The notes under the pieces: generated by a model
The model's input: only the letters and a program-made list of their open reading frames with translations
What the model was told of the DNA's origin: nothing
The model's database searches: none
In this document: positions 28,627 through 60,610 of the stretch, one piece after another
How positions within the stretch are numbered: the first letter of the stretch is position 1
Layout of the letters: every line of letters begins with the position of its first letter
DNA from: Bacillota bacterium
GTDB lineage: Bacteria; Bacillota; Clostridia; Oscillospirales; Oscillospiraceae
DNA: 64,000 nucleotides
Direction of reading: 5' to 3'
Assembly: GCA_028719885.1 (NCBI GenBank)
Contig: JAQYLT010000012.1
Location: 26,702-90,701, forward strand
Position numbers and translations under genes: made by a program

Positions 28627-29805
28627 CTAGAGCTTTACAAACCAGCCAATGATTTTCCGAAATCCCCGGTACAGGGGGCCTTCCAGTTCTCTTTGGGCGT
28701 TTTGAAGCTCCTCCCGGATGGGGATGTGCTGGGGGCAGTGCTTTTCGCATTTGCCGCAGCGGATGCAGTTGGAGGCGGCGGTGGAAGTTTTGCGGATCAT
28801 GGTGCACATCACGTAATCCTTGAGGCCATGGAAGGTGCCTTCCTGATATTTGCGGTTATAGGCGGCGAAGGTGCCGGGGATGTCTACATTCTGAGGGCAG
28901 GGCATGCAGTAGCCGCAGCCGGTGCAGCCGACCTTCATTTTGGCATTGATGGCCTTTACAACCTCTCGAAGCATTGCCTCATCCGCCTGGGTCAGTTCTC
29001 CCACGCTTGTGGTGGAAGCGGTGTGGAGATTATCCCGAACCATTTTCTCGGAGTTCATGCCCGACAGGACAACGGTGACCTCCGGCTGATTCCACAGCCA
29101 CCGGAAGGCCCACTGGGCGGGGGTGTGCCGCAGGGGGTAGTCGGCGAAAATCTTCTTCGCCCCCTCCGGCAGCCGACTAACCAGCTTTCCGCCCCGCAGG
29201 GGTTCCATAATTACAACCGGGATGCCCTTGCTGTGGGCATAGCTTAGCCCCCGGCGTCCGGCCTGAGAATGCTCGTCCATGTAGTTGTACTGGATCTGGC
29301 AGAAGTCCCAGTCCCAGGCATCCACCAGGCGGCAGAACATCTCGGAGTTTCCGTGGTAGGAAAACCCCACCTGCCGGATGGCGCCGCTTTCCTTCTTTTC
29401 CCGGAGCCAGTCCTCAATGCCCAGCCCCTTCAGCCGATCCCAGGTGGCGGTGTCCGTCAGCATATGCATCAGGTAGTAGTCCACATGGTCGGTGCGCAGG
29501 CGGCGCAGCTCCTCCGCAAAAAGCTTTTCCATGGCGTCTTTGCTTTTGATGAGATAATGGGGCAGCTTGGTGGCGATGTACACCTTATCCCGGAGGTGAT
29601 TGCGCTCCAGGATCTCTCCCAGCGCCGCTTCGCTGCCGGGATAGACGTAGGCGGTGTCAAAGTAGTTCACGCCGCCTTCAATGGCAGTCAGAAGCTCCCG
29701 CTCCGTTTCCGCCATGTCGATCAGTCCCGCCTTCCTGGGAAAGCGCATACAGCCAAAGCCCAAAACGGACAATTGATTTCCGTACCGATCCTCCCGATAA
29801 TTCAT
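28627..29805 (-). CDS. aldo/keto reductase with C-terminal 4Fe-4S ferredoxin domain
   Basis: 392 aa. AKR motifs GFGCMRF and NYFDTAYVYPGSE, plus C-terminal CTGCGYCMPCP and CIRCGKCEKHCP. Confidence 0.85.
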   Translation of the reverse strand: MNYREDRYGNQLSVLGFGCMRFPRKAGLIDMAETERELLTAIEGGVNYFDTAYVYPGSEAALGEILERNHLRDKVYIATKLPHYLIKSKDAMEKLFAEELRRLRTDHVDYYLMHMLTDTATWDRLKGLGIEDWLREKKESGAIRQVGFSYHGNSEMFCRLVDAWDWDFCQIQYNYMDEHSQAGRRGLSYAHSKGIPVVIMEPLRGGKLVSRLPEGAKKIFADYPLRHTPAQWAFRWLWNQPEVTVVLSGMNSEKMVRDNLHTASTTSVGELTQADEAMLREVVKAINAKMKVGCTGCGYCMPCPQNVDIPGTFAAYNRKYQEGTFHGLKDYVMCTMIRKTSTAASNCIRCGKCEKHCPQHIPIREELQNAQRELEGPLYRGFRKIIGWFVKL

Positions 29806-41427: not shown

Positions 41428-42180
41428 ATGGAGCCTTTCTTTTCTGAATTTCACGCTTCCGCCGCCAGCCAGCTGAATGGGAAGCCCTGTCAGCTGAGGC
41501 AGAGTGCGGATTCCTTCGATGGCTGGATGAAGCTGGGAAAATCTCTCAGTCACGAGCTGCGCTATCTGGAAGCCATTGAAGCCTATTCCCATGCCATCCT
41601 TTTGGAGTCCAACCGCATGGACGCCCTCCGGCAGCGGGGAGGAAAGTATCTGGCCACCTTGCAGCCGGAGAAGGCCATGGCGGACTTCGAGCGCTGCCGG
41701 ATGCTGGGGGGCGAAGAAAGCGACCTGAGCTACCGCATGGGACTGTGCTGGTTTTATGCCGGTGTTTACGGCATGGCCATCCGGGAATTCTCCCACTGCT
41801 GGGAGGTCTGCGACGACGAGCTGGGCATCGGGGCAATCTACTGGAGCATGATTGCGTCCTGGCGCAGCGGGAGAGAAGCCAGCCTGCTGCAAAATTACCG
41901 TGATGATATGAATGTGGGCCATCATACTGCCTATGCTTTCGCCGTCCGGGTCGCCCTGGGAAGGATTTCCCTGGAGGATGCCCTCTGGGAGCTGGACATT
42001 CAGCGGGAGGATTTGGAATTTTCCATGATGGCCTACGGTGTCGCCGCCTACTGTGAACACATCGGCGAGAGAGAAACGGCACAGGTCCTCTACCGGGAAA
42101 TTCTGGAGCGGGAGAGCTTCTGGATCAGCTTCGGCTTCCTGGCTGCCTGGAATGACAGAAAGCGGGGCAGACAATGCTGA
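41428..42180 (+). CDS. TPR-like repeat protein, function unknown
   Basis: 250 aa with TPR-like helices (YLEAIEAYSHAILLESNRMDAL...). Starts 1 nt after the permease stop. Confidence 0.55.
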   Translation: MEPFFSEFHASAASQLNGKPCQLRQSADSFDGWMKLGKSLSHELRYLEAIEAYSHAILLESNRMDALRQRGGKYLATLQPEKAMADFERCRMLGGEESDLSYRMGLCWFYAGVYGMAIREFSHCWEVCDDELGIGAIYWSMIASWRSGREASLLQNYRDDMNVGHHTAYAFAVRVALGRISLEDALWELDIQREDLEFSMMAYGVAAYCEHIGERETAQVLYREILERESFWISFGFLAAWNDRKRGRQC

Positions 42181-43007
42181 CGCTGGAGGAAGCCCTGAAA
42201 AACTGGGAGCAAGCCGGTCACCACGGCACCCGGGAGCAGCGGATCGCCCGGGGCAAGAAATGGCTGCCCTACTATGCCTATCTGGCGCAGCGGCAAAAGG
42301 ATGCCCCCTTTTCCCTGCCGGAAAAACCCAATGTCTTTGTTGCAGCCCTGCTGGAAGAAGGAGCAGTTCAGCCCGGAGATACCGTGCTGGACATCGGCGC
42401 AGGGCTAGGCAGCTACGCCCTGGAATTTGCCCGGGTTGGCTGCCGTGTTACTGCCTTGGATGCCAGCCAGGAATGCCTGGATGTTTTGAAAATCCGTGCC
42501 GTCCAATGCGGTTTTGAAATTGAAACCGTTCAATCCACCTGGGAGGAATTCGCACCGAAACAAACCTACGATGTGGCCTTCAGCTCCATGTGTCCGGCCA
42601 TCTGCAATATGGAAGAACTGGAACGGATGGAATCCATCACAAACAAAACCTGCTGCCTGATCACTACAGCCCGGGGCTCCCGGGACAAGCACCGCAAGGC
42701 CATGATGGCCGCACTGGACATCCACCCCCAGGGCGGCATGACCACAGAGGCACTGCACTATCGGAACGCCCTGTCCCTCTCCGGCAGACCCTTCCGGATG
42801 AAAAGCATGTCCACCCATTCCACCCACCGCATCAGCACCGACACAGCCCTGGAGCAGTATCCCATCTATTTCCACATTTTCGGAGTCCCCGAAGAAAAAT
42901 CAATCCCTTTTCTGAAAACCTATCTGGAAGACAATGCGAAAGACGGTTTTCTGGAGGAGGAAAGTCAAATGAATCTGGAGATGCTGTTTTGGAATGTGAA
43001 TAGATGA
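42174..43007 (+). CDS. class I SAM-dependent methyltransferase
   Basis: Motif I VLDIGAGLGSYALEFA with an acidic residue after beta-2 (ALDAS). Overlaps the TPR gene by 7 nt. Confidence 0.75.
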   Translation: MLTLEEALKNWEQAGHHGTREQRIARGKKWLPYYAYLAQRQKDAPFSLPEKPNVFVAALLEEGAVQPGDTVLDIGAGLGSYALEFARVGCRVTALDASQECLDVLKIRAVQCGFEIETVQSTWEEFAPKQTYDVAFSSMCPAICNMEELERMESITNKTCCLITTARGSRDKHRKAMMAALDIHPQGGMTTEALHYRNALSLSGRPFRMKSMSTHSTHRISTDTALEQYPIYFHIFGVPEEKSIPFLKTYLEDNAKDGFLEEESQMNLEMLFWNVNR

Positions 43008-43254: not shown

Positions 43255-43776
43255 TTATGCCGTTTTCTCCACCTTGCTATAAGAGAAAACAGCACGCTTC
43301 CCATAGTGATGATTTGCAATCTCTATGTAATCCGGTTCGCTGTCGTGAACTCTACTGTCAAAAGTGATTTCCGCTTCATCGCCGGTGTGAAGCACCTTCA
43401 CTTCTTCATCCCCGGATTCCGGCGGCAAACACCATAATCCTACAATACCGTCATAACTGTGATGATGAATCTCGATTTCCCCCAACTTCACGCAAAATCG
43501 GTAGGTTGACTTCCCTGGGTCCTGTGAAAAATCGATTGCATAGCCATGCAGTGCCAAAACAGGATGCAAGGTAACGGTCTTTTCTTCCATGTATACTCCA
43601 TCTTCTTTCTGCAAAATAGCCTTGCTGAGACTGGACTGTGTGACATAGAGATTCTGTGATGCCTGGTTGATCGATCCGCAGTGTGCGATCTCAACTGCGT
43701 ATTTCATCTGTTTTACAGAGATATCCAGCATTTTCTGCCTCACATTCTTGTCTGTAGCCTTATTTCTGTTTTCCAA
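43255..43776 (-). pseudogene. chimeric ORF: LysR-type HTH fragment fused to an unrelated ~110-aa His-containing segment
   Basis: MKYAVEIAHCGSINQASQNLYVTQSSLSKAI is a LysR HTH, but homology stops before the co-inducer domain. GC content is lower than in the neighbouring genes. Confidence 0.45.
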
Positions 43777-45615: not shown

Positions 45616-45732
45616 ATCTCTTTCCTTTCTTTTTGTTGACTCCCGAAGGTGCCTGTATTATAATCCAGTTCAGATTGATATGTAAAATATATTATTTGCA
45701 TATCGGAAATATAAAAAAGGTATGATTTGAGC

Positions 45733-46626
45733 ATGTACATCAATTTGGACCATTACAGGGCTTTTTACTACGTTGCCAAATACGGGAATATTACCCGGGC
45801 GGCAGCCGCACTGATGAATAACCAGCCCAATGTGACAAGAACCATAAAGCTTCTGGAAAAGGAGCTGGGCTGCACCCTGTTTGTTCGTTCCAGCCGGGGT
45901 GTTCAGCTGACCCCCGACGGAGAAAAGCTGTTTGCCCATGTCCGTATCGCCATGGAGCAGCTGGAGATGGGTGCGGAGGAGCTGATGATGGATCAGACCC
46001 TGCAGAGCGGCACCGTCACCATCGGCGCAAGCGAGGTGGCGCTGCGCTGCTTCCTGCTGCCGGTTCTGAAGGAATTCCATCAACAGTATCCCAATGTGCG
46101 GCTGAGAATCTATAATTACTCCGCTGCCGAAGCAATCACCAGTCTGAAGAACGGCATTGTGGATCTGTCCGTTGCCCGGGTTCCCATGGAGGCGGCGAAA
46201 GGCTTGTCTGCACGAATCCTCTGCCACATTCCGGAGGTCGCCGTCTGTGGAAACGCCTTTCGGCACCTTGCCCAGCAGGAATGCGATCTGGAGCAGCTGA
46301 CCCATTATCCGATCATTTCCCTGGACGCCAATACATTGATGTATCAGGTCTACAGCACCTGGTTTGCCAGCCATGGACTGCGCTTTTGCCCAGAGGTGGA
46401 GGTGACGACTTCCGACCAGATTCTCCCCATCGCGGCATGCAATCTTGGAATTGGCTTTGTCCCGGAAGCTTTTCTGTCCGAGGCCCCGGAGGGAAGCGTT
46501 TACCGGCTGCGGCTGAAAGAACCCATTCCGGTGCGCTCTCTGTGCTTCCTGAAACGAAAGGATCTTCCAGCCTCTGCCGCCGGGAAACGGTTGGAGGAGA
46601 TGATTCTCAGCGCTGCCAGAAAATGA
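45733..46626 (+). CDS. LysR-family transcriptional regulator
   Basis: HTH YVAKYGNITRAAAALMNNQPNVTRTIKLLE with a LysR substrate-binding domain. ATG at 45733; the ORF track starts at a TTG at 45727. Confidence 0.85.
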   Translation: MYINLDHYRAFYYVAKYGNITRAAAALMNNQPNVTRTIKLLEKELGCTLFVRSSRGVQLTPDGEKLFAHVRIAMEQLEMGAEELMMDQTLQSGTVTIGASEVALRCFLLPVLKEFHQQYPNVRLRIYNYSAAEAITSLKNGIVDLSVARVPMEAAKGLSARILCHIPEVAVCGNAFRHLAQQECDLEQLTHYPIISLDANTLMYQVYSTWFASHGLRFCPEVEVTTSDQILPIAACNLGIGFVPEAFLSEAPEGSVYRLRLKEPIPVRSLCFLKRKDLPASAAGKRLEEMILSAARK

Positions 46627-46627
46627 A

Positions 46628-46656
46628 TTGACAAGTCCTCTATCTATCAGTATAAT
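46628..46656 (+). promoter_or_regulatory. consensus sigma-70 promoter driving the riboswitch leader
   Basis: TTGACA, 17-nt spacer, TATAAT. Confidence 0.65.
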
Positions 46657-46679
46657 TATATCGGAACGAAAAAATGTAC

Positions 46680-46843
46680 CATTCAGGTGCCCGGGGTGGA
46701 ATCAACACGGACGGGTGAAAAGGGAAGCCGGTGGGAATCCGGCACGATGCTGTCACTGTGTATGGGAGCTGTTTTCGATTGCTCACTGGGAAACCGGGAA
46801 GAGGAAAATGGCGATGATCAAAGTCAGGAGACCTGCCTGAATG
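46680..46843 (+). promoter_or_regulatory. cobalamin (B12) riboswitch aptamer
   Basis: P1 helix CATTCAGG/CCTGAATG. Core AAAAGGGAAGCCGGTGGGAATCCGGCAC...CACTGT, GCTCACTGGGAAACCGGGAAG, and B12 box AGTCAGGAGACCTGCC. Confidence 0.85.
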
Positions 46844-46980
46844 TGGAATTTCGGATTCGCAGTCTACGGATCGTCTTTCTCACATGTTTTCTTTCATTGG
46901 GCAGAAAAAAGCTGTGCGTCGATTGGCGCATGGCAGTTTTGTGTATGCTTTTTCCGATGAAAGGGAAGCTGTTTTGATTG

Positions 46981-47005
46981 CCGCCGTAGCAATACGGCGG
47001 TTTTT
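46981..47005 (+). terminator. intrinsic terminator (expression platform candidate) 25 nt upstream of the LysR ATG
   Basis: CCGCCGTA GCAA TACGGCGG TTTTT. Confidence 0.7.
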
Positions 47006-47029
47006 GCTGCCTTTTTGGAGGGATCAAGG

Positions 47030-47962
47030 ATGAATACGCTGTACTTCAACTACGCACTGGAGGTAGAAAAAACAGCCTCCATCACCCAGGCCGCGGACAA
47101 TCTGTTTATGACCCAGCCCACCTTGAGCAAAGCCATCAAGGACCTGGAAAACAGTCTGGGCTTTTCCATATTTCGCCGCACCTCCAAGGGAGTGGTTCCC
47201 ACCCAGAAGGGACGGGAATTTCTGGAGCACGCCCGGAAAATTGTGGCGCAGATTGAAAAGATGGAGCTGTCCCTGCAATCCAGAGATTCTGTAAACCAGG
47301 TCTTCAGCCTTGCCATTCCCCGAGCCAGCTATATTTCCCAGGCTGCGGCGAAATTCCTGTGCTCTTTTGACAACAGCCGGGAAATGGAGCTGGACATTCT
47401 GGAAACCAGCTCCCTGAATGTAATTGAAAAGGTGGCCACTGGAAATTTTGTGCTGGGTATCATCCGCTGCCATGTAGAGGACGAGGATTATTTTCTGAAA
47501 AATCTGGCGGAAAAGGGGCTGCAATATGAAAATCTGTGGCAGTCCCACTTTGTGGCGCTGATGTCCCAGAATCACCCCCTTGCCCGACAGTCCAAGCTGA
47601 CGGCAGAGGAGTTTGCCCCTTATATTGAAGTCGCCTTTGGGGATGACCATGTGCCCTATGTTCGGGTGAGCAGCCACAGCAGAGCAACGGATACGCTGAA
47701 TAACAAGCGGATTCTGGTTTATGACCGTGCCATGCAGTTTGACCTGCTGCGGGCCAACTCCCTGGCGTATATGTGGACATCTCCCCTGCCCGTGCAGCTG
47801 CTGGAGCAGAACAACCTGGTCCAGCGCAAAATCAAAAACAGCTGTGAATTCAAGGACCTGCTTATCAGCCGGGCCGGCTACCGGTACAGCAAGCTGGACC
47901 GGGATTTCATCAACGAATTGACGTTACAGCGAAATGAGGTTGCCTATACAGACGGCTTCTGA
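47030..47962 (+). CDS. LysR-family transcriptional regulator (downstream of the B12 riboswitch)
   Basis: 310 aa counted from the ATG after GGAGGGA. HTH ITQAADNLFMTQPTLSKAIKDLE. Confidence 0.85.
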   Translation: MNTLYFNYALEVEKTASITQAADNLFMTQPTLSKAIKDLENSLGFSIFRRTSKGVVPTQKGREFLEHARKIVAQIEKMELSLQSRDSVNQVFSLAIPRASYISQAAAKFLCSFDNSREMELDILETSSLNVIEKVATGNFVLGIIRCHVEDEDYFLKNLAEKGLQYENLWQSHFVALMSQNHPLARQSKLTAEEFAPYIEVAFGDDHVPYVRVSSHSRATDTLNNKRILVYDRAMQFDLLRANSLAYMWTSPLPVQLLEQNNLVQRKIKNSCEFKDLLISRAGYRYSKLDRDFINELTLQRNEVAYTDGF

Positions 47963-48518
47963 GCCATGCCACACCGGAATGTCTGTCATTCCGTTTTCAA
48001 TCACCTTTCTCTCTTCTGGGTTTCAAAAAAATAGGAGCCTGCCGAAAAAAGATGGCCGCTTGCGGGGTCAGTGAATTTTTCGGCAGGCTCTTTTTATCTT
48101 TTTGTGAGAAATGTCATAAGAAGTCAGTTGCTCCTTTGTGGCAATCTTCGATGTCATATTTTGATTTGCTTTAAGCTGTTTTACCCCCAAATGACACCGC
48201 TTTTATGGGAAAAAGGGTCAGAGAAATCAAGTCTATCCATACAAGAATGGAATCTGTGCCATTCGGAAGTTGAATTGACGGGAGCGCACAGGAATGATAT
48301 GATGGGAGCGTCAATAAACTTCAATTGATAACACACCGAAACTACATGGATATTGACTGGTCCATCCATGCGTGTCGGTGTGTTGACAAAACAAGTTTTC
48401 TCAGAACGAACCTTCCTCGTTCTTTGAAATCACCTTCTTATGGAAATGCGCCGCGTATCTTGCAGTCAGATGTGCGGCGTGTTTTCATAAGCATAAACCA
48501 TGTCAGAAAGGATTGTGC

Positions 48519-49619
48519 ATGATGTCAACCATCTTCATCTCCCCCTCCAAATACATTCAGGGCCCGGGCGAAATAAACAACATCGGTAAATATACCGCTG
48601 GGCTGGGCAAAAAGGCGCTGTGCGTGATCTCCAAGGGTGGATATACCCGTCAGGGTTCCCAGATTGAAGCCAGCTTTGCAGGTGTCGATGCCGATGTGAT
48701 TTTTGACTATTTTAATGGCGAATGCTCTATGAATGAGATTAACCGACTGGTTGACGTCGTCAAAGAGAAGCAGTGTGACGTGGTTATCGGTGTCGGCGGC
48801 GGCAAGATTTTCGACACCGCAAAGGCTGTGGCCTACCATGTGGGAGCTCCGGTCATCATCTGCCCCACCATCGCCTCCACTGACGCTCCCTGCTCCGCAC
48901 TTTCCGTCATTTATACCGATGAGGGCGTATTCCAGGAGTATCTGTTCCTGCCCTCTAATCCCAATCTGGTCATAATGGACACCCAGATCATTGCCGACAG
49001 CCCTGTCCGGCTGACGGTTTCCGGCATGGGCGATGCCATGGCCACCTGCTTTGAGGCAAGAGCCTGCTGCCTTTCCGGTGCCAGCACCTGTGCAGGCGGC
49101 AAGGTCAGCGTTGCGGCCTTGGGCATTGCAAAGCTGTGCTTTGACACGCTGATGAATGACGGTCTGCTGGCGAAATCCGCATTGGAAACCCACACCTGCA
49201 CCCCTGCCGTAGAGCGGGTCATTGAGGCCAATACGCTGCTGTCCGGCATTGGTTTTGAGTCCGGCGGTCTGGCGGGTGCCCATGCCATCCACAACGGCCT
49301 GACTGTCCTGGAGGAATGCCACCACATGCAGCACGGCGAAAAGGTCAACTTCGGTACCCTCACCCAGCTGGTTTTGGAGCAGATTCCCGAGGAGGAATTG
49401 TGTGTTATGCTGAACTGGATGACCGCTGTCGGGTTGCCGGTTACGCTGAAGGAGCTGGGCATCACCGATGACAGCCGTGAACATCTGATGCCCGTTGCCG
49501 AGGCAGCCTGCGCTGTAAACGATACCATGCACAACCTCCCCTTCCAAGTGGACGCCGAGCGCGTCTACAATGCGATCCTGGTTGCGGATTCCTACGGCCG
49601 GGCAGCGCTGGCAATGTAA
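48519..49619 (+). CDS. gldA: glycerol dehydrogenase (iron-containing ADH family)
   Basis: GVGGGKIFDTAKA, IASTDAPCSALSV and GMGDAMAT motifs. ATG at 48519 follows AAAGGA. Confidence 0.88.
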   Translation: MMSTIFISPSKYIQGPGEINNIGKYTAGLGKKALCVISKGGYTRQGSQIEASFAGVDADVIFDYFNGECSMNEINRLVDVVKEKQCDVVIGVGGGKIFDTAKAVAYHVGAPVIICPTIASTDAPCSALSVIYTDEGVFQEYLFLPSNPNLVIMDTQIIADSPVRLTVSGMGDAMATCFEARACCLSGASTCAGGKVSVAALGIAKLCFDTLMNDGLLAKSALETHTCTPAVERVIEANTLLSGIGFESGGLAGAHAIHNGLTVLEECHHMQHGEKVNFGTLTQLVLEQIPEEELCVMLNWMTAVGLPVTLKELGITDDSREHLMPVAEAACAVNDTMHNLPFQVDAERVYNAILVADSYGRAALAM

Positions 49620-53388: not shown

Positions 53389-53486
53389 ATCCAAAACTAC
53401 AACGAAACCGGACTTGCCCTGCCAGGCAAGCCCATAACGCATCATTTCAGACAAGCTACTTTCTTCGGAAGATACTCATCGTTCCA

Positions 53487-53646
53487 TCCAAGCAGGCTTC
53501 CTGGCTTACGGAATCGCTCCAAATGCGCCTTCTCGCCTTTCGGCAATGGCATATGCCCTGGGATAACCGCTTACAGTGACCGGATCGCTCGGGACTTTCA
53601 CCCGATTTCCTTTTACCTTTTCCGTTTCCACGGAAAAGCACTTGGA
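53487..53646 (-). promoter_or_regulatory. cobalamin riboswitch aptamer (minus strand) controlling the BtuFCD-type importer
   Basis: The minus strand reads TCCAAG...AAAAGGAAATCGGGTGAAAGTCCCGAGC...GGTCACTGTA...AAGCCAGGAAGCCTGCTTGGA (P1 helix TCCAAG/CTTGGA). Confidence 0.8.
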
Positions 53647-53804
53647 CAGTAGTATTCAGCTTTATCGTACGCCTTTGGCGCACTTGAATCACTCATTGCT
53701 GTCTATAAAGATACCACATTGCAGGATGCTTGTCAACAATCTGCGTTGCCTGAGGTATTGCAAAAAAGCGGGTGATATGTTATCATATTAGAGAACTGAA
53801 TAAG

Positions 53805-53987
53805 GAATCGGTGCCGTTTGTTCCTGTGGGAATGGAACGGATAATAGGGAAACAGGTGAAAGGCCTGTACGATCTCGTCACTGTATGTAACGAGCGCACC
53901 CTCTGTGTCAGAAAAGGACAGTCACTGGCGAAAGCCGGGAAGACGAAGGTGCGTGATGACTTACGAGTCAGGAGACCTGCCGATTGC
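53805..53987 (+). promoter_or_regulatory. cobalamin riboswitch aptamer (plus strand) controlling cbiK-DUF1638-RACo
   Basis: P1 helix AATCGG/CCGATT. Core AATAGGGAAACAGGTGAAAGGCCTGTAC...GTCACTGTA, GTCACTGGCGAAAGCCGGGAAG, and B12 box AGTCAGGAGACCTGCC. Confidence 0.85.
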
Positions 53988-54081
53988 TGGTACGGGAGCA
54001 TCGTCGAGGTGTTCCAGATCACGAGGAATTGATTGTACCGTGTTCACGGGGGGGCTGAATGGCGTCCCGCGGTCATTGTGC

Positions 54082-54112: not shown

Positions 54113-54179
54113 CGGCGTGTTTCCGTACCTGACTTTGTTGTTGTGCTTTTTACATTGCAAAACGAAGGAGGAAACACCA

Positions 54180-55049
54180 ATGAACCCACAGACAATCCAT
54201 CAGGCGGATAACCCCAGAAACCAGGATGGTATCGGAGAAAAGGAGCTGCTGGCGGTCAGCTTCGGCACCAGCTATCTTGACAGCTGCCGGCTGACCATCG
54301 GAGCCATCGAGGATGCTCTGGAAAGGGCCTTTCCGGGGTACGATCTTCGCAGGAGCTTTACCAGCCAAATGATCATTAACCACATTCAGCGTCGGGACGG
54401 GATCTCCATCGACAATGTTACCCAGGCTTTGGATCGGGCCGTATCCAATGGAGTGAAAAACCTGGTCATTCAGCCAACGCATATCATGGACGGCTTTGAA
54501 TATCAGAAACTGGTCAAGCAGGCCGCCCGGTATCAGGATGCTTTCCTTTCCCTTTCCATTGGTACCCCGCTGTTGACCTCTGATGAGGATTTCCGGATCG
54601 TTGCCGATGCCCTGGCTGCATCCGTCGCCGCCTATGACGATGAAAAAACCGCCATCTGCTTTATGGGCCACGGCACGGAAGCCGCCGCCAACAAAGTGTA
54701 CGAAAGAATGCAGCAGCAGCTGACGGACAGCGGCAGAGACAATTACTTCATTGGCACGGTGGAGGCGGTCCCCACCGTTGAAAAGGTATTGTCCCTGGTG
54801 AAGGCCGGGAATTACAGGCGTGTGCTTTTGCGGCCAATGATGATCGTCGCCGGGGACCACGCCAACAACGACATGGCCGGTGAGGAAGAGGGCTCCTGGA
54901 AGCACATCTTTGAAAGCGCCGGTTATGAGGTGGCATGCCAGGTGCATGGCCTCGGGGAACTGGAAGCCATTCAGAACCTGTTTGTGAAGCACGCAAAAGC
55001 GGCCATTGAGGTTATCAGCAGCCTGTATGCTACCCGTAAGCGGTACTGA
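54180..55049 (+). CDS. cbiK: sirohydrochlorin cobaltochelatase (anaerobic, CbiK-type)
   Basis: 289 aa counted from the ATG after AAGGAGG. LLAVSFGTSY and VIQPTHIMDGFEY motifs. Confidence 0.8.
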   Translation: MNPQTIHQADNPRNQDGIGEKELLAVSFGTSYLDSCRLTIGAIEDALERAFPGYDLRRSFTSQMIINHIQRRDGISIDNVTQALDRAVSNGVKNLVIQPTHIMDGFEYQKLVKQAARYQDAFLSLSIGTPLLTSDEDFRIVADALAASVAAYDDEKTAICFMGHGTEAAANKVYERMQQQLTDSGRDNYFIGTVEAVPTVEKVLSLVKAGNYRRVLLRPMMIVAGDHANNDMAGEEEGSWKHIFESAGYEVACQVHGLGELEAIQNLFVKHAKAAIEVISSLYATRKRY

Positions 55050-55066: not shown

Positions 55067-55702
55067 ATGAAACGGATGATACTCTCCTGCCCCACGTTGA
55101 AAAAAGAACTCATGCAGCTGCTCTCCAACTATCATCTGGAATACCCTGTATACTTCCTTCCTACCAATCTCCACAGCAGCCCCAGTCAATTGCACGAATA
55201 TCTACAAACAATCATCGACGCACAAATGGATGCAGAACAGATTCTCATCTGTATCTCCGGCTGCGGCGGTGGAACCTCCAGACTGAAAGCAACCACCGCA
55301 GAACTGGTTATTCCAAAAACAAGGGACTGCGTGGACATCCTGCTCTCTCAGGACTCTGTTCCAGGTATTCGCCGGGCAACAGATGGAATATTCCTGACGG
55401 ACAGCTGGATGGAGTTTTTCCGGGAATCCTCGCTGGACTATCAGAGCATGGTTAATCTTTGCGGACAATCCCGTGGGGAGGAGCGACTGAAAACCATCTA
55501 TCAGGGTTTTGAGCATTTCTATATAATTGATACCGGCACCTATGATCTTACTCCCGTCAAGGAGTACATACAGCCGCTGGTAAGTCTCCTGGGTGGAACA
55601 CTTGAAATCGTACCCGGAAAATGTGGGATTTTGAAGAAGCTCGTCACTGGCATTTTTGATGATAATTTTCAGATCGTACCGAAAGGCACTATCTCCCAAT
55701 AG
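55067..55702 (+). CDS. DUF1638-like protein
   Basis: 211 aa. The family is recurrently linked to corrinoid methyltransferase systems. Call rests on overall sequence resemblance only. Confidence 0.55.
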   Translation: MKRMILSCPTLKKELMQLLSNYHLEYPVYFLPTNLHSSPSQLHEYLQTIIDAQMDAEQILICISGCGGGTSRLKATTAELVIPKTRDCVDILLSQDSVPGIRRATDGIFLTDSWMEFFRESSLDYQSMVNLCGQSRGEERLKTIYQGFEHFYIIDTGTYDLTPVKEYIQPLVSLLGGTLEIVPGKCGILKKLVTGIFDDNFQIVPKGTISQ

Positions 55703-55782: not shown

Positions 55783-57708
55783 ATGAGTAAAGTGATTTTC
55801 AAAATTGAGGGCGGAACTCCCGTCTCCATCACCTGCAACACCGGGGATAACCTGCTGGAAGCTGCCCGCCGGGCCAATGTGGCCATTGACGCTCCCTGCT
55901 CCGGCAATGGTTCCTGCGGCAAATGCCGGGTAAAGCTCATCGAAGGCAGTCTGGACAGTATCCAATCCCGTCACATCTCTGAAGAAGAATGGGCAGAAGG
56001 CTGGCGCTTAAGCTGCTGCTCCAAGGTGTCCGGCGACTGCACGGTTCTGGTACCGGACATCGCCTCCGCCTACCAGAGCCGCATGAAAACCGCCGACCTG
56101 TCCAGCCCAAAGGAGATTGCCATTTTTGAAAATGCCCAGGCGGGCCTGAAAGCAAGTGGAATTCCGTTCACCAATCATTTCCGCGCCGTGGTGCTGACCA
56201 TGGCGGAGCCTACTCTGGACGATACCATGCCCGATATAGAGCGGCTGATCTGGGCGGTTGAGGAAGCACTGGGTGTGGATCAAGTGGAAGTTCCTTTCGC
56301 TGTCATGGTAAAGCTGGCTTCCACGCTCCGGGAGCACGACTTTACAGTGTGTGTCAAGGGTGAATTGGCCGGTAATGCGTTCCGGTGCATGGAGGTCTGC
56401 GGGCCGGATGACACCGCCATTGTCGGATGCGCCATCGACATCGGTACAACCACGGTGACCATGGTTCTGACTGACTTGACCAACGGAAAGCTGCTTGCCA
56501 AAGGTTCCTCCGGCAACGGGCAAATCCGTTATGGTGCGGATGTCATCAACCGCATCATCGAGCAGAGTAAGCCCGGCGGCAGGAAAAAACTCCAGGATGC
56601 CATTGTAAAGGAAACTTTGACTCCCATCATAGCCAACCTTTGCAAATCAGCCGAGATCAACGCAAGAAGCATCCTGCGGCTCAGCGTAGGAGCCAATACA
56701 ACCATGAACCATCTGTTTGTAGGTGTGGACGCCAACCCAGTCCGAATGGACCCCTATATTCCCAGCTTCTTCCGCTGGGAGGGATTGCTGGCCGGAGACC
56801 TGAAGCTGCCTGCCAATCCCCTGGCCCCGGTTCTCATCGCGCCCAACATTGGCTCCTATGTGGGCGGGGATATTACCGCCGGTACACTGGCCAGCCTGAT
56901 CTGGGACAAGGAGGAAATGAGCCTATTTATCGACCTGGGAACCAACGGCGAGATCGTGTTCGGCAATCGGGATTTTCTCATGTCCTGTGCCTGTTCCGCT
57001 GGTCCCGCTTTTGAGGGAGGCGATATTTCCTGCGGTATGCGAGCTACGGACGGTGCCATTGAGGCCTGCACCATTGACTGCGAGACCATGGAACCCATCC
57101 TATCCATTGTTGGTGATCCCGGTCAGAAACCGGTGGGTATCTGTGGCTCCGGCATCATCGATATTATCTCCGAGCTGTACCGCTGTCGCATGATCAACGC
57201 CAAGGGCCTGTTTATCCGGGAGGGCAGTCGGGTGAAGCGGGACGCCCATAACATGGGCCGCTATGTAATCGCCGCTGCTGAAGAATCCGAAACAGGCCGA
57301 GAGATTTCCATCAACGAGGTGGACATCGACAACTTCATCCGGGCAAAGGGCGCCATCTTCTCCGCCATTGATACCCTGCTGCAAAGCGTGGACATGACCG
57401 TGGATATGATCGATAAGGTCTATGTCGCAGGCGGCATCGGCTCTGGGATCAACATGAAAAATGCCGTGAATATCGGTATGTTCCCGGATGTGGAACTGGA
57501 GAAATTCCAATACATCGGCAATTCCTCGCTTACCGGTGCCTACGCCATGGTCATGAGCGATGAAGCCACCGCCAAGTGTTCGGAGGTCGCAGCCAATATG
57601 ACCTATCTGGAGCTGAGCACCCATCCAGGATATATGGATTCTTTTGTTGCCGCCTGCTTCATTCCCCACACGGACAACAGACTGTTTCCCAACAGCATTC
57701 AGGCATAA
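55783..57708 (+). CDS. corrinoid reductive activase (RACo-type: 2Fe-2S ferredoxin + ASKHA ATPase)
   Basis: 641 aa. Plant-type 2Fe-2S motif CSGNGSCGKCRV...SCC, followed by an ASKHA/DUF4445-like domain (AIDIGTTTV, DLGTNGEI). Confidence 0.8.
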   Translation: MSKVIFKIEGGTPVSITCNTGDNLLEAARRANVAIDAPCSGNGSCGKCRVKLIEGSLDSIQSRHISEEEWAEGWRLSCCSKVSGDCTVLVPDIASAYQSRMKTADLSSPKEIAIFENAQAGLKASGIPFTNHFRAVVLTMAEPTLDDTMPDIERLIWAVEEALGVDQVEVPFAVMVKLASTLREHDFTVCVKGELAGNAFRCMEVCGPDDTAIVGCAIDIGTTTVTMVLTDLTNGKLLAKGSSGNGQIRYGADVINRIIEQSKPGGRKKLQDAIVKETLTPIIANLCKSAEINARSILRLSVGANTTMNHLFVGVDANPVRMDPYIPSFFRWEGLLAGDLKLPANPLAPVLIAPNIGSYVGGDITAGTLASLIWDKEEMSLFIDLGTNGEIVFGNRDFLMSCACSAGPAFEGGDISCGMRATDGAIEACTIDCETMEPILSIVGDPGQKPVGICGSGIIDIISELYRCRMINAKGLFIREGSRVKRDAHNMGRYVIAAAEESETGREISINEVDIDNFIRAKGAIFSAIDTLLQSVDMTVDMIDKVYVAGGIGSGINMKNAVNIGMFPDVELEKFQYIGNSSLTGAYAMVMSDEATAKCSEVAANMTYLELSTHPGYMDSFVAACFIPHTDNRLFPNSIQA

Positions 57709-57893: not shown

Positions 57894-59396
57894 CTATTGC
57901 CCCAGGCTTCTTTCGCATTCTTTCCGAAGCGTTTCCTCCTTCAGCCGAATCTGCAGCCGTCCGCATTCTTTCAGATACTCCGGGCAATTGTGCCGGGCGA
58001 TAAAGGTCATAATGGCAGGACTGGCGGTCATCTCAGAAAGGAGGGCTGTCAGTTCCTGTCCGTTTCCAAGGCTGTCCCGCAGCCATTTGATCCCATTTTC
58101 AAGCATCCGGCGGACTTCCTGAACCTGCTCATTGCGAGCGATCAGCCGTTTCTCAAAGCGGCTGCGAAGGTGTTCTTTTATCTCCTCCGGCGCAGTCAGT
58201 CGTTTCTCTTTCAGCTCCAGCGCCATTGCTTCCAGCTGCGTGAGCACCGCTTCTTCTCTGCGGAGCTCCCCATCGGTGAGCAGGGAGAATTTCTGTTTGG
58301 TCTGCATCGCTTCCCGGCGCTTGGACAGGTACTCCGTAAAATCCTCCTTTTGGGCGAAATAGATTTTCAGCGCTTCGTGGAGCAGAACCGTTTCCTCCTC
58401 CATACGGCTGTATTTTCCGCACACATCCCGCAGACGGTGGAGCACCATTTCTGTCACTGCAAAGCGCTCCACAAAATCCCCATCAGCTGCCAGGGCGCAT
58501 TTTTCCCAATACGCTTCTTGGGAGATTTCCCCGGACAGGATTTCCGGGATGCAGTAGTCACTTCCGTACTTTCGATAGAGACTGTAATAGGCAAAAAATT
58601 CCCGGGATGTTTCCGGCAGGCATAGATATTCGGAAATCACTTCCTCCGCCACCGGGATGCCCAGCTTCTCGTAGCTCTCCAGAAGCGCCGACAAATCCTC
58701 CCACCCCCGGGCTGTCACATAAAAAAGCCGGTTTTCCTGGCGGCTCACATGGTAAAACCGTTCCGGGTGCAGCCGCAGATAGGATTGAACTGCCCCGTGA
58801 AGCCCCTGCTGGCAGCCGTATTGCAGGAACACCTCCACATTGGGGGTCACTTCGATGGTTCGGATTCGATCCAGAGTCACAATATCAAACTCCCGTACGG
58901 ATTTGTTATACTCCGCCGGGTTGCCCGCCGCCACAATGATCCACCCTCGGGGAAGGGCGTGGGTGCCGAAGGTTTTGTTCTGCAAAAACTGCAGCATGGT
59001 GGGCGCCAGGGTATCCGAGACGCAGTTGATTTCGTCCAGGAACAAAATTCCCTCCCGGCAGTGGGTTCGCTCCATGGTGTCATAAACCGATGCAATGATC
59101 TCGCTCATGGTATATCGGGTCACGGAGACCGTTTCGGTCCCATAGGTCTGCTGGTTGATCTGGGGCAGGCCGATGGCACTCTGGCGGGTGTGATGGGTCA
59201 TGGTGTAGGAAACCAGACCGATGTGCAGCTGCTGGGCAATCTGTTCCATGATGGCCGTTTTTCCAATGCCGGGAGGGCCCATCAGCAGAATCGGCCTCTG
59301 GCGGACGGTGGGAAACAGATAATTTCCTCCTTCATCCTTACACAGATAGGCACGAAGGGTATTTTCTATCTCCTGTTTTGCTTCCTGAATGTTCAT
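57894..59396 (-). CDS. MoxR/AAA_5-type AAA+ ATPase with long helical C-terminal extension
   Basis: Walker A LMGPPGIGKT, Walker B ILFLDEIN, and AAGNP sensor region. Confidence 0.8.
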   Translation of the reverse strand: MNIQEAKQEIENTLRAYLCKDEGGNYLFPTVRQRPILLMGPPGIGKTAIMEQIAQQLHIGLVSYTMTHHTRQSAIGLPQINQQTYGTETVSVTRYTMSEIIASVYDTMERTHCREGILFLDEINCVSDTLAPTMLQFLQNKTFGTHALPRGWIIVAAGNPAEYNKSVREFDIVTLDRIRTIEVTPNVEVFLQYGCQQGLHGAVQSYLRLHPERFYHVSRQENRLFYVTARGWEDLSALLESYEKLGIPVAEEVISEYLCLPETSREFFAYYSLYRKYGSDYCIPEILSGEISQEAYWEKCALAADGDFVERFAVTEMVLHRLRDVCGKYSRMEEETVLLHEALKIYFAQKEDFTEYLSKRREAMQTKQKFSLLTDGELRREEAVLTQLEAMALELKEKRLTAPEEIKEHLRSRFEKRLIARNEQVQEVRRMLENGIKWLRDSLGNGQELTALLSEMTASPAIMTFIARHNCPEYLKECGRLQIRLKEETLRKECERSLGQ

Positions 59397-60610
59397 AAAA
59401 CCTCCTTGATCACCGCCCAGGGGGGCAGAAGCTCCGGGTGAATCGTCTTTCCCGCCAAAATGAAGACCGTCTCATAGTCCGGCGGCTCAGAGGGATACGC
59501 ACCATCCCCATCCGTAAAATACAGCAATGCCCTTGGTTTTTTCAGAATGCCCTCTTTTCGGAGACGCTCGATCTCCCGGAATACCGGACGGAAATCCGTA
59601 CCGCCCCGGCCATGGATTTTCACATTCCAGGCATAATTCAGCCATTCCTCCCGGGAGCGGATTCTGGCCATATCCTGCAAGCAGCAATCGCACTGGAAGA
59701 AAATCACATTCATCCTGCGGAAGAAGTTTTCCTGAGCCGTCAGGATGGCGTAGGCCTCCCGCAGAAAGCGGCTCACCGTTTCCTCATCGCAGGAGGATGA
59801 GGTGTCGATGGCAATGACCAATTCATCCAGCCGGGTAACCTCCCTGTATTCCAGCGGTTCCAGCAGGGGAAGATTGCCGTACTGCCGCATTCCCAGGTCG
59901 TAGTAAATATAATCAAAGCTTTCATCGTCCAGTTCCATTTCCTCCCCGGGCACCATGTATTTTCGCAGATACGGGCGGTAATCCCGGGGCTCCGGCTTCA
60001 AAAGGATGAATTCTCCCCATTCCGAGTCCGTGGAGGTTCCTCTTGTCCCCTGCCCGAAGGCACCGCTGCCGGACTGGACAGACTGCCATTTCTGAATCAG
60101 TTCCGGATGGCGCATCTCCCACCAGAGCCGATGGTCATCGAAGCGGAACGCCTGTGTCAGTTCTTCTTTCGTGAAAGGGAGCTTTTGGATGTAGGCCATC
60201 ATTTCATAAGGGGACTGATCCCCCTCCGGCAGCTGCGCAAGAACCTGGGTGCGAATGGGTACGTCTGTTTCCAGCCGGGGCTGGGAAAGGGCTGTGATCT
60301 GCCTTTCCACCAGCACATCGCAGGCAAGTCCCCACAGCTTCACATCCACTCCCGGGGGCGGGAAAATGTGAAGATACAGGCAGTGCAGAAGCGTGTGGAG
60401 GAAGCCTCTGCGAAGGGCAGCGGGAGAAGCTGCATAGATAGGAAAAATGGCTTCCGAGGCATACAGTCGGATGCCGTCCGTCCCAAAGGGAATTTCTTCG
60501 GATGGTTGATAAGGCAGCCATGCAAAGGCCAGGTTCAACCCGGGGTACAGCTGGCAGAGCTCTGTACGGCATATGGTCAGCAGGTCATGAATCAGTGTCT
60601 GCTTATCCAT
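59393..60610 (-). CDS. VWA-like protein with N-terminal putative metallopeptidase-like domain (DUF2201-type)
   Basis: 405 aa. MIDAS-like motif AIDTSSSC. Overlaps the AAA+ start by 4 nt. Confidence 0.7.
   Translation of the reverse strand: MDKQTLIHDLLTICRTELCQLYPGLNLAFAWLPYQPSEEIPFGTDGIRLYASEAIFPIYAASPAALRRGFLHTLLHCLYLHIFPPPGVDVKLWGLACDVLVERQITALSQPRLETDVPIRTQVLAQLPEGDQSPYEMMAYIQKLPFTKEELTQAFRFDDHRLWWEMRHPELIQKWQSVQSGSGAFGQGTRGTSTDSEWGEFILLKPEPRDYRPYLRKYMVPGEEMELDDESFDYIYYDLGMRQYGNLPLLEPLEYREVTRLDELVIAIDTSSSCDEETVSRFLREAYAILTAQENFFRRMNVIFFQCDCCLQDMARIRSREEWLNYAWNVKIHGRGGTDFRPVFREIERLRKEGILKKPRALLYFTDGDGAYPSEPPDYETVFILAGKTIHPELLPPWAVIKEVL

What the first reader, a model, noticed from the sequence alone, without database searches (positions are those of the whole stretch)
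46628..47962. Cobalamin riboswitch placed in front of a LysR-type transcription factor
Seen:
- A perfect promoter (TTGACA-17-TATAAT) is followed by a canonical B12 aptamer (46680-46843, B12 box AGTCAGGAGACCTGCC).
- About 135 nt of spacer comes next.
- An intrinsic terminator follows (46981-47005).
- 25 nt later comes the SD and ATG of a LysR regulator.
- No transporter or cob/cbi gene follows. The next gene is gldA.

Established: B12 riboswitches almost always control transport or biosynthesis genes. The few regulatory exceptions act through non-coding RNAs, such as the antisense RNA to pocR in Listeria and EutX in Enterococcus.

Inference: B12 availability may be relayed here to a transcription factor, or to a short riboswitch-terminated sRNA. 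This could tie corrinoid status to glycerol/diol metabolism or to the neighbouring LysR/MATE genes.
Basis: partly seen in the sequence, partly recalled or inferred. Interest (0 to 1): 0.62.

Follow-up and report, generated by a model that had tools for sequence, protein, structure and literature searches.

The report
B12 riboswitch controlling a LysR regulator
A genuine vitamin-B12-sensing RNA switch sits in the leader of a LysR-type transcription factor gene in pig-gut Faecousia bacteria, and this regulator normally sits beside a fumarate-to-succinate fermentation operon, so B12 supply is probably passed through a protein regulator to fermentation genes, not to B12 transport or synthesis.

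Summary
The leader has a 12/12 sigma-70 promoter (46628-46656), an Rfam cobalamin aptamer (46668-46854, 92 bits), a ~125-nt spacer and a strong terminator (46980-47005). The SD and ATG of a 310-aa LysR regulator follow 25 nt later.

The linkage is not a one-off. The same leader precedes orthologues of this LysR in five protein lineages of Oscillospiraceae (65-98 % identity). It has been lost in sister lineages, in one case by a visible ~300-nt deletion that keeps the promoter. The aptamer evolves far more slowly than synonymous sites.

The spacer holds an invariant P13/L13 hairpin. [quoted passage not shown] This antiterminator is the predicted ground state at the decision point in four diverged leaders. 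That matches the experimentally dissected repressing corrinoid riboswitch, so B12 most likely turns the regulator off.

In 32 of 36 related loci the regulator is followed by an Ldh-FumC-Flx/Hdr-fumarate-reductase "succinate operon", or by an Fe-alcohol dehydrogenase. In this strain that operon was deleted at 48175, which placed gldA next door.

Verdict: a new variant of a known kind, moderately interesting.

The parts
46628..46656 (+). Sigma-70 promoter TTGACA-17-TATAAT. It abuts the stop codon of the upstream LysR1 gene (46624-46626). The TSS is inferred at about 46660-46664.
   Evidence: 12/12 match. The same promoter is retained in L005, which has deleted the aptamer. The '-10 + TATATCGG' arrangement is unique in the window.
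46668..46854 (+). Cobalamin (corrinoid) riboswitch aptamer with a P6 peripheral extension. B12 box at 46822-46837; P1 at about 46680-46687 / 46836-46843; L5 = UGCUG at 46748-46752.
   Evidence: Rfam RF00174, 92.2 bits, E 1.4e-21. Identity to strains is 96.8-100 % where synonymous divergence is 0.08-0.23.
46854..46872 (+). P13 hairpin (GAUUCG / CGGAUC) with the invariant loop L13, CAGUCUA. CAG of L13 (46860-46862) is complementary to CUG of L5 (46750-46752), giving the proposed kissing loop.
   Evidence: 100 % paired in 6 distinct leaders, with two U-G/C-G exchanges. The loop and the following GUCUUUC are invariant while the rest of the linker is only ~55 % identical. Paralogue RS3 pairs L5 CUCG with a first-hairpin loop CGAG.
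46864..46869 (+). 5' strand of the antiterminator (CUACGG). It overlaps the 3' side of P13.
   Evidence: Pairs with 46984-46989. The helix is part of the unconstrained MFE of transcripts cut before the terminator's 3' side in window, L006, L099 and L098. 97 % of cells are paired.
46882..46972 (+). Long, lineage-variable hairpin acting as a structured spacer. Its tip (46911-46934, plus UUUUGUGU) looks like a terminator but is not conserved.
   Evidence: It is replaced by unrelated hairpins in L098 and L099.
46980..47005 (+). Intrinsic terminator T2, with a 9-bp stem, GCAA loop and U5. Its 5' side, 46984-46989 (CCGUAG), is the 3' strand of the antiterminator.
   Evidence: 98 % paired across lineages, with two compensatory pairs (GC<->AU, UA<->CG).
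47017..47022 (+). Shine-Dalgarno sequence GGAGGG, 7 nt before the ATG.
   Evidence: Sequence.
47030..47962 (+). LysR-type transcription factor ('LysR2', 310 aa).
   Evidence: HTH_1 and LysR_substrate. 928 homologues. dN/dS 0.10-0.19. Orthologues precede the succinate operon.
47975..48092 (+). Terminators after LysR2: GGAAT-N7-ATTCC hairpin at 47975-47993 and a large A-tract/hairpin/U-tract at about 48028-48100.
   Evidence: Metatranscriptome depth is 0 at 47933-48074 in X25.
48100..48175 (+). Remnant of the promoter region of the lost Ldh/succinate operon (GGCAATCTTCGATGTCATA...). The deletion breakpoint is at 48175 and the -10 box is gone.
   Evidence: blastn of L002/L003 against the window. 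Comparison of intergenic regions.
48519..49619 (+). gldA (glycerol dehydrogenase). It is adjacent only through the strain-specific deletion and is not part of the conserved unit.

Best explanation
This is a functional, repressing (B12-OFF) transcriptional corrinoid riboswitch that acts in cis on the mRNA of a LysR-type transcription factor.

Proposed mechanism:
- Transcription starts at the consensus promoter (46628-46656).
- With corrinoid bound, loop L5 (CUG, 46750-52) kisses loop L13 (CAG, 46860-62) and stabilises hairpin P13 (46854-46872). The terminator T2 (46980-47005) is then free to form, and the transcript ends 25 nt before the start codon.
- Without corrinoid, P13 opens. Its 3' part, CUACGG (46864-69), pairs with CCGUAG (46984-89) in the 5' side of T2. 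The long variable hairpin (46882-46972) brings the two together. This antiterminator lets RNA polymerase read into the LysR gene.

Proposed physiology:
- The regulator belongs to an orthologous group that sits directly upstream of fermentative NADH-sink genes. These are Ldh-like dehydrogenase, fumarase, Flx/Hdr-type bifurcating complex and TfrAB-like fumarate reductase (the 'succinate operon'), or an AdhE-like alcohol dehydrogenase.
- The most likely physiological meaning is therefore a two-step cascade: B12 scarcity leads to more LysR protein, which changes expression of B12-independent fermentation or electron-sink pathways.

What is shown and what is inferred:
- Shown here: the elements, their conservation, the synteny, and the predicted alternative structures.
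- Inferred: ligand binding, the sign of regulation, the kissing loop, and that the LysR protein regulates the adjacent operon.
- In this particular strain the neighbouring operon has been deleted, so the regulator's remaining targets are unknown.
For: - Aptamer: 92.2 bits, full length, perfect B12 box.
- Promoter: 12/12 match.
- Recurrence: the same leader plus the same gene is found in window/L001-L004, L098, L006/L097, L099/L100 and L083-85, with LysR identity of 65-98 %.
- Loss by deletion: L005 keeps the promoter and the first ~55 nt of the leader, but lacks ~300 nt up to the SD. The promoter therefore serves the LysR gene, and the switch was ancestral there.
- Selection: aptamer divergence is 0-3 % where synonymous divergence is 8-23 %. 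LysR dN/dS is 0.10-0.19.
- Structure counts: T2 is 98 % paired with 2 compensatory pairs, and P13 is 100 % paired. The antiterminator is 97 % paired.
- Folding: the antiterminator is in the MFE of pre-terminator transcripts in 4 of 4 lineages, although their linkers are ~55 % identical.
- RNA: pig-gut metatranscriptome contigs span aptamer, T2 and CDS, and stop after the LysR gene.
- Synteny: the operon lies directly downstream in 32 of 36 loci with at least 55 % identity and at least 2 kb of downstream sequence. Its gene content is given, and it matches the 'succinate operon' of P. thermosuccinogenes (PMC7282089).
- Shared promoter features: a conserved promoter architecture lies upstream of that operon, and a similar ATATCG(A/G) motif lies at the start of the LysR leader.
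Against: - There is no experimental ligand-binding or termination data.
- RNA evidence consists of low-depth assembled contigs without strand information. DNA carry-over cannot be excluded, and similar depth on both sides of T2 gives no measure of regulation.
- The full-length MFE always contains T2, by 1.8-10.7 kcal/mol over the antiterminator, so read-through rests on kinetic control.
- The antiterminator strands are invariant, so it has no covariation support.
- The kissing loop has only 3 Watson-Crick pairs.
- The riboswitch is absent from most orthologues, about 75 of 80 genome loci, so it is dispensable for the regulator's core role.
- The L083 version has a low-scoring aptamer (46 bits), a deviant B12 box and a different, unresolved platform.
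- No operator for the LysR protein was established.
- In the window strain its neighbouring operon is gone.
Confidence: 0.68

Rival explanations
1. The riboswitch mainly produces a stand-alone, terminator-ended ~340-nt RNA that acts in trans as a sponge or antisense RNA, like EutX/Rli55 or AspocR. LysR expression from read-through would then be incidental.
For: - T2 is strong and is always in the full-length MFE.
- The linker is unusually long and structured.
- One metatranscriptome contig (X28, 46581-46862) covers little more than the aptamer.
Against: - There is no room for a promoter between T2 and the SD (25 nt).
- The deletion variant L005 keeps the same promoter for the LysR gene.
- Contigs bridge T2 into the CDS in three runs.
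- The hairpin loops are 4 nt (GAUU, GCAA), not ANTAR-type hexaloops.
- The middle hairpin is not conserved, so there is no conserved trans-acting module.
- The target gene is on the same strand, not antisense.
Confidence: 0.1
2. The LysR protein is part of corrinoid homeostasis: it regulates uptake, salvage or cofactor-loading genes. The riboswitch would then simply extend the ordinary B12 regulon, and the link to fermentation genes would be coincidental synteny.
For: - The window has two more B12 riboswitches within 7 kb, in front of btuFCD-like genes and cbiK-DUF1638-RACo.
- In L083 a DUF4430 protein gene lies 1.8 kb upstream.
Against: - In 32 of 36 orthologue loci the gene next door is the succinate operon, with no B12 gene nearby and no riboswitch.
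- B12 genes in the window have their own riboswitches.
- Strain L002 carries the riboswitch-LysR unit in a rearranged context.
Confidence: 0.12
3. The element is a decaying relic or neutral passenger. The riboswitch would have been captured by rearrangement from a former transport or biosynthesis operon and would no longer regulate anything useful.
For: - Its distribution is patchy, with repeated losses.
- The locus is structurally unstable in this species.
- The L083 aptamer is degenerate at the B12 box.
Against: - The aptamer is 5-10 times more conserved than synonymous sites.
- P13/L13, T2 and the AT strands are maintained across lineages whose linkers have diverged to ~55 % identity.
- The same downstream gene follows in all five lineages.
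Confidence: 0.05
4. It is an activating (B12-ON) riboswitch like A. halodurans cobT, so the LysR protein would be made when corrinoid is present.
For: Activating corrinoid riboswitches exist (PMC10653944). The sign was not measured here.
Against: In the activating type, the 3' side of P13 shares sequence with the terminator's 5' side, so the two exclude each other. Here P13 and T2 are 107 nt apart and compatible. The 3' side of P13 is complementary to T2's 5' side, not identical to it, which is the repressing layout.
Confidence: 0.05

Closest known systems
Repressing transcriptional corrinoid riboswitch of Priestia megaterium metE (Kennedy et al. 2023, PMC10653944)
   Same: It has an aptamer with an L5-L13 kissing loop of ~3 bp and a P13 hairpin. 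[quoted passage not shown]
   Different: The regulated gene is a transcription factor, not a B12-independent enzyme. P13 and the terminator are separated by a 107-nt structured, lineage-variable hairpin; that study saw 0-82 nt in 38 riboswitches. Nothing has been tested experimentally here.
B12 riboswitches in front of B12-independent isozymes (metE, nrdDG/nrdEF; established knowledge from Rodionov/Vitreschak 2003, recalled from memory)
   Same: The logic is to switch on the B12-independent alternative when B12 is scarce.
   Different: Here the signal would pass through a LysR protein to a whole pathway, not directly to an isozyme gene. The B12-dependent counterpart is not identified.
EutX/Rli55 (Enterococcus, Listeria) and AspocR (Listeria): B12 riboswitches that control regulators through non-coding RNAs
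   Same: B12 status is relayed to a regulatory protein (EutV, PocR) and hence to a catabolic programme.
   Different: Those act in trans, by an ANTAR-site sponge or an antisense RNA. Here the riboswitch is a classical cis leader of the regulator's own mRNA, with no ANTAR hairpins and no antisense arrangement.
c-di-GMP riboswitch Vc2 in the tfoY leader of Vibrio cholerae (recalled from memory)
   Same: A riboswitch sits in the 5' leader of a transcription-factor gene, creating a riboswitch-to-TF cascade.
   Different: The ligand class, regulator family and organism group all differ.
'Succinate operon' of Pseudoclostridium thermosuccinogenes (fumarate hydratase + Flx-Hdr + novel fumarate reductase; PMC7282089)
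   Same: Gene content matches the operon that follows the LysR orthologues: FumC, HdrB/C/A-like, MvhD, Fe-S/FAD subunits and TfrA/B-like.
   Different: In the Oscillospiraceae loci an Ldh/Mdh-like gene usually leads the operon and a LysR gene precedes it. No riboswitch or LysR link is described in that paper.

Membership tests
Cobalamin riboswitch (Rfam RF00174) | Covariance-model score above the curated gathering threshold over the full model | tested here: met
   92.2 bits against 31.5, model positions 1-189/189, E 1.4e-21.
Cobalamin riboswitch (Rfam RF00174) | Conserved B12 box and core junction nucleotides | tested here: met
   AGUCAGGAGACCUGCC at 46822-46837 matches the consensus AGCCAGGAGACCuGCC. 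GGGAA/GGUG/AAUCC core present (alignment).
Cobalamin riboswitch (Rfam RF00174) | L5-L13 kissing loop linking aptamer and expression platform | tested here: inconclusive
   L5 CUG (46750-52) and L13 CAG (46860-62) are complementary and invariant in all Faecousia-clade leaders. The paralogue at 53792 has the matching pair CUCG/CGAG. Only 3 bp are involved, there is no covariation within the clade, and no mutational test was done.
Cobalamin riboswitch (Rfam RF00174) | Expression platform with mutually exclusive antiterminator and terminator | tested here: met
   Met by prediction only. The AT helix is in the MFE at the decision point in 4 of 4 lineages. T2 has 2 compensatory pairs. AT is 97 % paired.
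Cobalamin riboswitch (Rfam RF00174) | Binds a corrinoid and changes gene expression | not testable with these tools
   Needs in-line probing/ITC and termination or reporter assays.
LysR-type transcriptional regulators (LTTR) | N-terminal winged HTH (PF00126) plus C-terminal substrate-binding domain (PF03466), about 300 aa | tested here: met
   HTH_1 60.4 bits (residues 8-62). LysR_substrate 32.6 bits against a cut-off of 28 (residues 118-297). 310 aa. No NCBIfam equivalog reaches its cut-off. The nearest PDB relatives match mainly the N-terminal region and only weakly.
LysR-type transcriptional regulators (LTTR) | Regulates an adjacent gene or operon through T-N11-A type sites, often with autoregulation | tested here: inconclusive
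   Synteny with the Ldh-FumC-Hdr-Tfr operon is strong, 32 of 36 loci, and sequence blocks around its promoter are conserved. No operator could be assigned, and the ATTCC/GGAAT palindromes may be terminators.
Trans-acting riboswitch RNAs (EutX/Rli55 type) | ANTAR-binding dual hairpins with hexanucleotide loops (A at 1, G at 4) downstream of the aptamer | tested here: not met
   The hairpin loops in the leader are GAUU and GCAA (4 nt) and CAGUCUA (7 nt). The middle hairpin is not conserved.
Antisense-acting riboswitches (AspocR type) | Riboswitch transcript runs antisense to the regulator gene it controls | tested here: not met
   The riboswitch and the LysR gene are on the same strand, and the terminator lies 25 nt upstream of the ATG.

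The most novel reading that the evidence does not exclude
In gut Oscillospiraceae, a corrinoid riboswitch sets the level of a dedicated LysR regulator. That regulator in turn governs the choice of NADH/electron sink: the Flx-Hdr-coupled fumarate reductase 'succinate operon', Ldh and Adh. This would be a riboswitch-to-transcription-factor cascade in which vitamin B12 availability reprogrammes fermentation end-products (succinate, lactate, ethanol) and not B12 supply itself.
Probability: 0.35. Interest if true: 0.75.

Novelty: new variant of a known kind. Interest (0 to 1): 0.6.

Why it matters
Cobalamin riboswitches are textbook regulators of B12 transport, B12 synthesis and B12-independent isozymes. 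A conserved cis-acting B12 riboswitch on a transcription-factor mRNA would let one small-molecule sensor control a distal regulon.

The likely regulon here is a flavin-based electron-bifurcating fumarate reductase pathway and other fermentative sinks, found in abundant but uncultured gut Oscillospiraceae. Three things would follow:
- It would link cross-fed corrinoids in the gut to succinate, lactate and ethanol output, which are metabolites with host effects.
- It would give a handle on the regulation of the poorly understood Flx-Hdr/Tfr 'succinate operon'.
- It would add a natural example of an unusually long, structured P13-to-terminator spacer to the design rules for corrinoid riboswitches.

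The repeated loss of the switch, including a caught-in-the-act deletion, also offers a natural experiment on when such coupling pays.

Tried and rejected
1. Antiterminator between the aptamer segment just 5' of the B12 box (46808-46823) and 46973-46987. It is strong in the window (-16 kcal/mol, 0.7 % of shuffles), with apparent covariation in L006. It is weak or absent in L097, L099 and L083, so I rejected it as the conserved mechanism.

2. The terminator-like hairpin at 46911-46934 plus UUUUGUGU as the regulated terminator. It is present in window, L006 and (similar) L083, but unrelated hairpins replace it in L098 and L099. I treat it as a structured spacer.

3. Search of JGI metagenome contigs for the P13 motif. 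It gave only one chance hit inside a coding region (L081).

4. Riboswitch search in all 80 genome loci of LysR homologues, down to 43 % identity, with Rfam on 24 loci and my own CM on all. Only L001-L004 and L006 were positive. The other positives came from exact-protein look-ups.

5. Candidate LTTR boxes. ATTCC-N5-GGAAT palindromes follow the LysR stop codon in many loci, but in the window they are no commoner than chance and look like terminators. TTCRATKTCA occurs only as the remnant at 48147, plus one chance site.

6. Literature searches for a B12 riboswitch upstream of a LysR or other transcription factor found nothing relevant.

7. Whole-leader MFE folding does not reproduce the aptamer fold, and I did not use it for the aptamer.

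8. Metatranscriptome contigs give presence only. No 3'-end or depth step at T2 could be read.
Full report
**1. Observation**

- The promoter scan finds a perfect TTGACA-17-TATAAT at 46628-46656. It is the only 12/12 site in 45-49 kb.
- Rfam places a full-length cobalamin aptamer at 46668-46854 (+), with 92.2 bits against a gathering score of 31.5 and E 1.4e-21.
- The B12 box AGUCAGGAGACCUGCC lies at 46822-46837.
- A GC-rich 9-bp hairpin at 46980-47001, followed by U5, is found by the terminator scan and by folding.
- GGAGGG at 47017-47022 and ATG at 47030 open a 310-aa ORF with HTH_1 and LysR_substrate domains.
- The next gene, 48519-49619, is a glycerol dehydrogenase.
- Upstream lie a second LysR gene (45727-46626) and a divergent MATE gene.
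- Two further cobalamin riboswitches, at 53474-53660 (-) and 53792-53998 (+), precede a btuFCD-like ABC transporter and cbiK-DUF1638-RACo/AcsV.

**2. Organism and strain variation**

LysR homologue loci at 94-96 % identity come from pig and other gut MAGs named Faecousia (Oscillospiraceae). Runs holding the sequence are mostly pig-gut metagenomes.

Within this species the locus is structurally unstable:
- L003 and L002 follow the window up to 48175 and then continue into an Ldh-like gene.
- L002 carries 3.8 kb there: an Ldh-like gene, a truncated fumC fused to an hdrA fragment, and a TfrA-like flavoprotein. gldA comes only after that.
- L004 jumps from 47991 to 49523 and lacks gldA.
- L001 has 838 bp more at 43617, which makes a third LysR gene intact. 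In the window only a fragment of it is left (43255-43776).

The adjacency to gldA is therefore a strain-specific deletion product.

**3. Is the riboswitch-LysR linkage conserved?**

Among 80 genome loci encoding relatives (43-96 % identity), Rfam scans of 24 loci and my own covariance model on all of them found the aptamer only in L001-L004 and in L006 (78 % identity).

Exact-protein look-ups added more cases:
- L097 (a variant of L006).
- L099/L100 (77 %).
- L098 (81 %). Its contig starts inside the leader but holds P13, the linker and the terminator.
- L083-L085 (65 %; an abundant cluster seen on 573 contigs). There Rfam scores a more divergent aptamer at 46.1 bits, directly upstream of the LysR gene.

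On a neighbour-joining tree the riboswitch-bearing lineages are interleaved with lineages that lack it.

One loss is directly visible. L005 (83 %) keeps the same promoter and the first ~55 nt of the leader, then lacks ~300 nt up to just before the SD. This shows two things: the promoter serves the LysR gene, and the switch is ancestral to at least that clade.

**4. Selection**

- Against strains of the same species, the aptamer differs at 0-3.2 % of positions while synonymous sites of the LysR gene differ at 8-23 %.
- Against L006, the aptamer is 83 % identical, the linker 55 %, and synonymous sites are saturated.
- LysR dN/dS is 0.10-0.19.

Both the aptamer and the regulator are under purifying selection, even in the species whose neighbouring operon is decaying.

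**5. Expression platform**

The first hairpin after the aptamer is GAUUCG-CAGUCUA-CGGAUC (46854-46872). Together with the following GUCUUUC it is invariant or compensated in all Faecousia-clade leaders.
- Its loop contains CAG, which is complementary to CUG in L5 (46750-46752).
- The paralogous riboswitch at 53792 has L5 CUCG, and its first downstream hairpin loop has CGAG. This supports reading the hairpin as P13/L13.

The 3' part, CUACGG (46864-46869), is complementary to CCGUAG (46984-46989), the inner 5' side of the terminator.
- When transcripts are cut just before the terminator's 3' side, the unconstrained minimum-free-energy structure contains this helix in the window, L006, L099 and L098. 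Their intervening sequences are unrelated.
- With the full terminator present, the terminator fold wins by 1.8-10.7 kcal/mol.
- On a spliced alignment of six distinct leaders, T2 is 98 % paired with two compensatory pairs, P13 is 100 % paired, and the antiterminator is 97 % paired but invariant.

[quoted passage not shown] In that system the kissing loop stabilises P13. [quoted passage not shown]

In the activating type, P13 and the terminator share sequence. That is not the case here. I therefore infer a B12-OFF attenuator.

The 46882-46972 hairpin is a lineage-variable spacer. Its tip scores as a terminator-like site, but it is not conserved.

The L083 leader has the same order of parts (aptamer, hairpin, terminator, SD), but it has a deviant B12 box and I could not resolve its switching helices.

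**6. RNA evidence**

Four pig-gut metatranscriptome runs hold parts of the region.
- Assembled contigs run from the aptamer through T2 into the coding sequence: X26 46714-47116, X29 46714-47164, and X25 45630-46905 abutting 46906-47421.
- Coverage vanishes after the LysR stop codon in X25.

This fits co-transcription and read-through in vivo. However, depth is low, contigs carry no strand, and DNA carry-over cannot be ruled out. Nothing can be said about regulation from these data.

**7. What the regulator is for**

Clustering of neighbours and annotated contigs show a conserved operon directly downstream of the orthologues. Its genes are:
- an L-LDH-family dehydrogenase;
- often a class II fumarase;
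- HdrB-like (CCG), HdrC-like, HdrA-like and MvhD/FlpD;
- two Fe-S proteins;
- an AsrB/DHODB-like FAD/NAD subunit;
- TfrB/TfrA-like fumarate reductase subunits.

Of 36 loci with at least 55 % identity and at least 2 kb of downstream sequence, 32 have it.

This is the gene set called the 'succinate operon' in Pseudoclostridium thermosuccinogenes: fumarate hydratase, Flx-Hdr bifurcating complex and a novel fumarate reductase (PMC7282089).

In L006/L097 and L099/L100 the downstream gene is instead an AdhE-like iron alcohol dehydrogenase. More distant relatives sit next to Rex, Adh, hydrogenase or Nfn-like genes.

The intergenic regions share a promoter block, TTCAATTTCAC(A)...TATAAT...ATATCGATA. 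The window retains its upstream half up to the breakpoint at 48175. A similar TATAAT-N-ATATCGG opens the riboswitch leader and is unique in the window.

I infer that this LysR family regulates fermentative NADH sinks. No operator was established.

**8. Model**

B12 scarcity allows read-through, which yields more LysR protein and adjusts B12-independent electron-sink pathways. B12 sufficiency leads to termination.

This mirrors the known logic of B12 riboswitches on B12-independent isozymes, but works through a protein regulator.

Several points are unknown:
- whether the protein activates or represses;
- which B12-dependent process is the counterpart. Candidates are methylmalonyl-CoA mutase downstream of succinate, or corrinoid-dependent methyl transfer or acetogenesis, hinted at by the riboswitch-controlled RACo at 55783-57708;
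- what the regulator still controls in this strain, which has lost the neighbouring operon.

**9. Comparison and novelty**

The RNA is an ordinary member of RF00174, and the protein is an ordinary LTTR with a diverged effector domain.

What is unusual is the pairing. It is a cis riboswitch on a transcription-factor mRNA, conserved in several lineages. It contrasts with the trans or antisense solutions of EutX/Rli55 and AspocR.

Full-text searches found no description of a cobalamin riboswitch in front of a LysR or other transcription-factor gene. That search covers only the open literature held here.

I class the finding as a new variant of a known kind, with interest 0.6.

Noticed in passing
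window 53474-53660 (-) and 53792-53998 (+): Two more full-length cobalamin riboswitches (94 and 111 bits) lie back to back. One leads a Peripla_BP_2/FecCD/ABC (btuFCD-like) operon at 53311-50339 (-). The other leads cbiK (54177-55049), DUF1638 (55067-55702) and a RACo/AcsV corrinoid reductive activase (55783-57708; NF040756, 921 bits). A B12 riboswitch in front of a corrinoid-protein reactivase is itself uncommon.
   Followed up: partly
window 43255-43776 (-), junction at about 43617: This is a truncated third LysR gene. Strain L001 has 838 bp more here and encodes an intact 328-aa LTTR (33 % identical to the riboswitch-controlled one). In the window only the HTH part, fused to unrelated sequence, remains.
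   Followed up: partly
window 48175; L002:7144-10976; L003:4203; L004:2901: This is a hot spot of structural variation downstream of the LysR gene. Strains carry an intact Ldh-like gene, a decayed Ldh-fumC'-hdrA'-tfrA' remnant, only gldA (window), or neither (L004). The succinate operon seems to be in the process of being lost in this species.
   Followed up: yes
L083:10160-10504: In the lineage with an intact operon, the Ldh/succinate operon has a ~340-nt 5' leader. It contains a hairpin followed by GGUUUGUGUU. The same 'hairpin + UUUGUGU' motif occurs in the riboswitch leaders of the window (46911-46944), L006 and L083 (8897-8925). Its meaning is unknown.
   Followed up: no
just after the LysR stop codon in many loci (e.g. 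L086:9931-9970, L095:6931-6970, L083:9950-9985; window 47975-47993): Conserved ATTCC-N4-5-GGAAT (window: GGAAT-N7-ATTCC) palindromes occur, sometimes in tandem. They may be terminators or protein-binding sites.
   Followed up: partly
window 24773-26791 (+): A 672-aa protein with a TAT signal, an FMN_bind domain and an FAD_binding_2 domain, that is, an exported flavin reductase of the fumarate/urocanate-reductase type. In strain L002 this region (window 24716-28217) lies next to the riboswitch-LysR unit.
   Followed up: no
window 28336-28413 (-): Rfam group II intron domain hit (47.8 bits against 40). The adjacent ORF, 28627-29805 (-), is an aldo/keto reductase with a 4Fe-4S domain, not a reverse transcriptase, so this may be an ORF-less intron or a fragment.
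   Followed up: partly
window 57894-60610 (-): A MoxR-like AAA ATPase (500 aa) and a DUF2201 VWA-like protein (405 aa) form a pair immediately after the RACo gene.
   Followed up: no
window 42174-43007 (+): A SAM methyltransferase with a weak match to the corrinoid-protein-associated methyltransferase CpaM (42.9 bits, far below the cut-off of 180). It is preceded by a TPR protein and an oligopeptide-type ABC transporter.
   Followed up: no
L083:8689-8900: The riboswitch in front of the 65 %-identical LysR orthologue has a deviant B12 box (AGUCAGAAGAACUAC) and scores only 46 bits. It may have altered ligand preference or be degenerating.
   Followed up: partly
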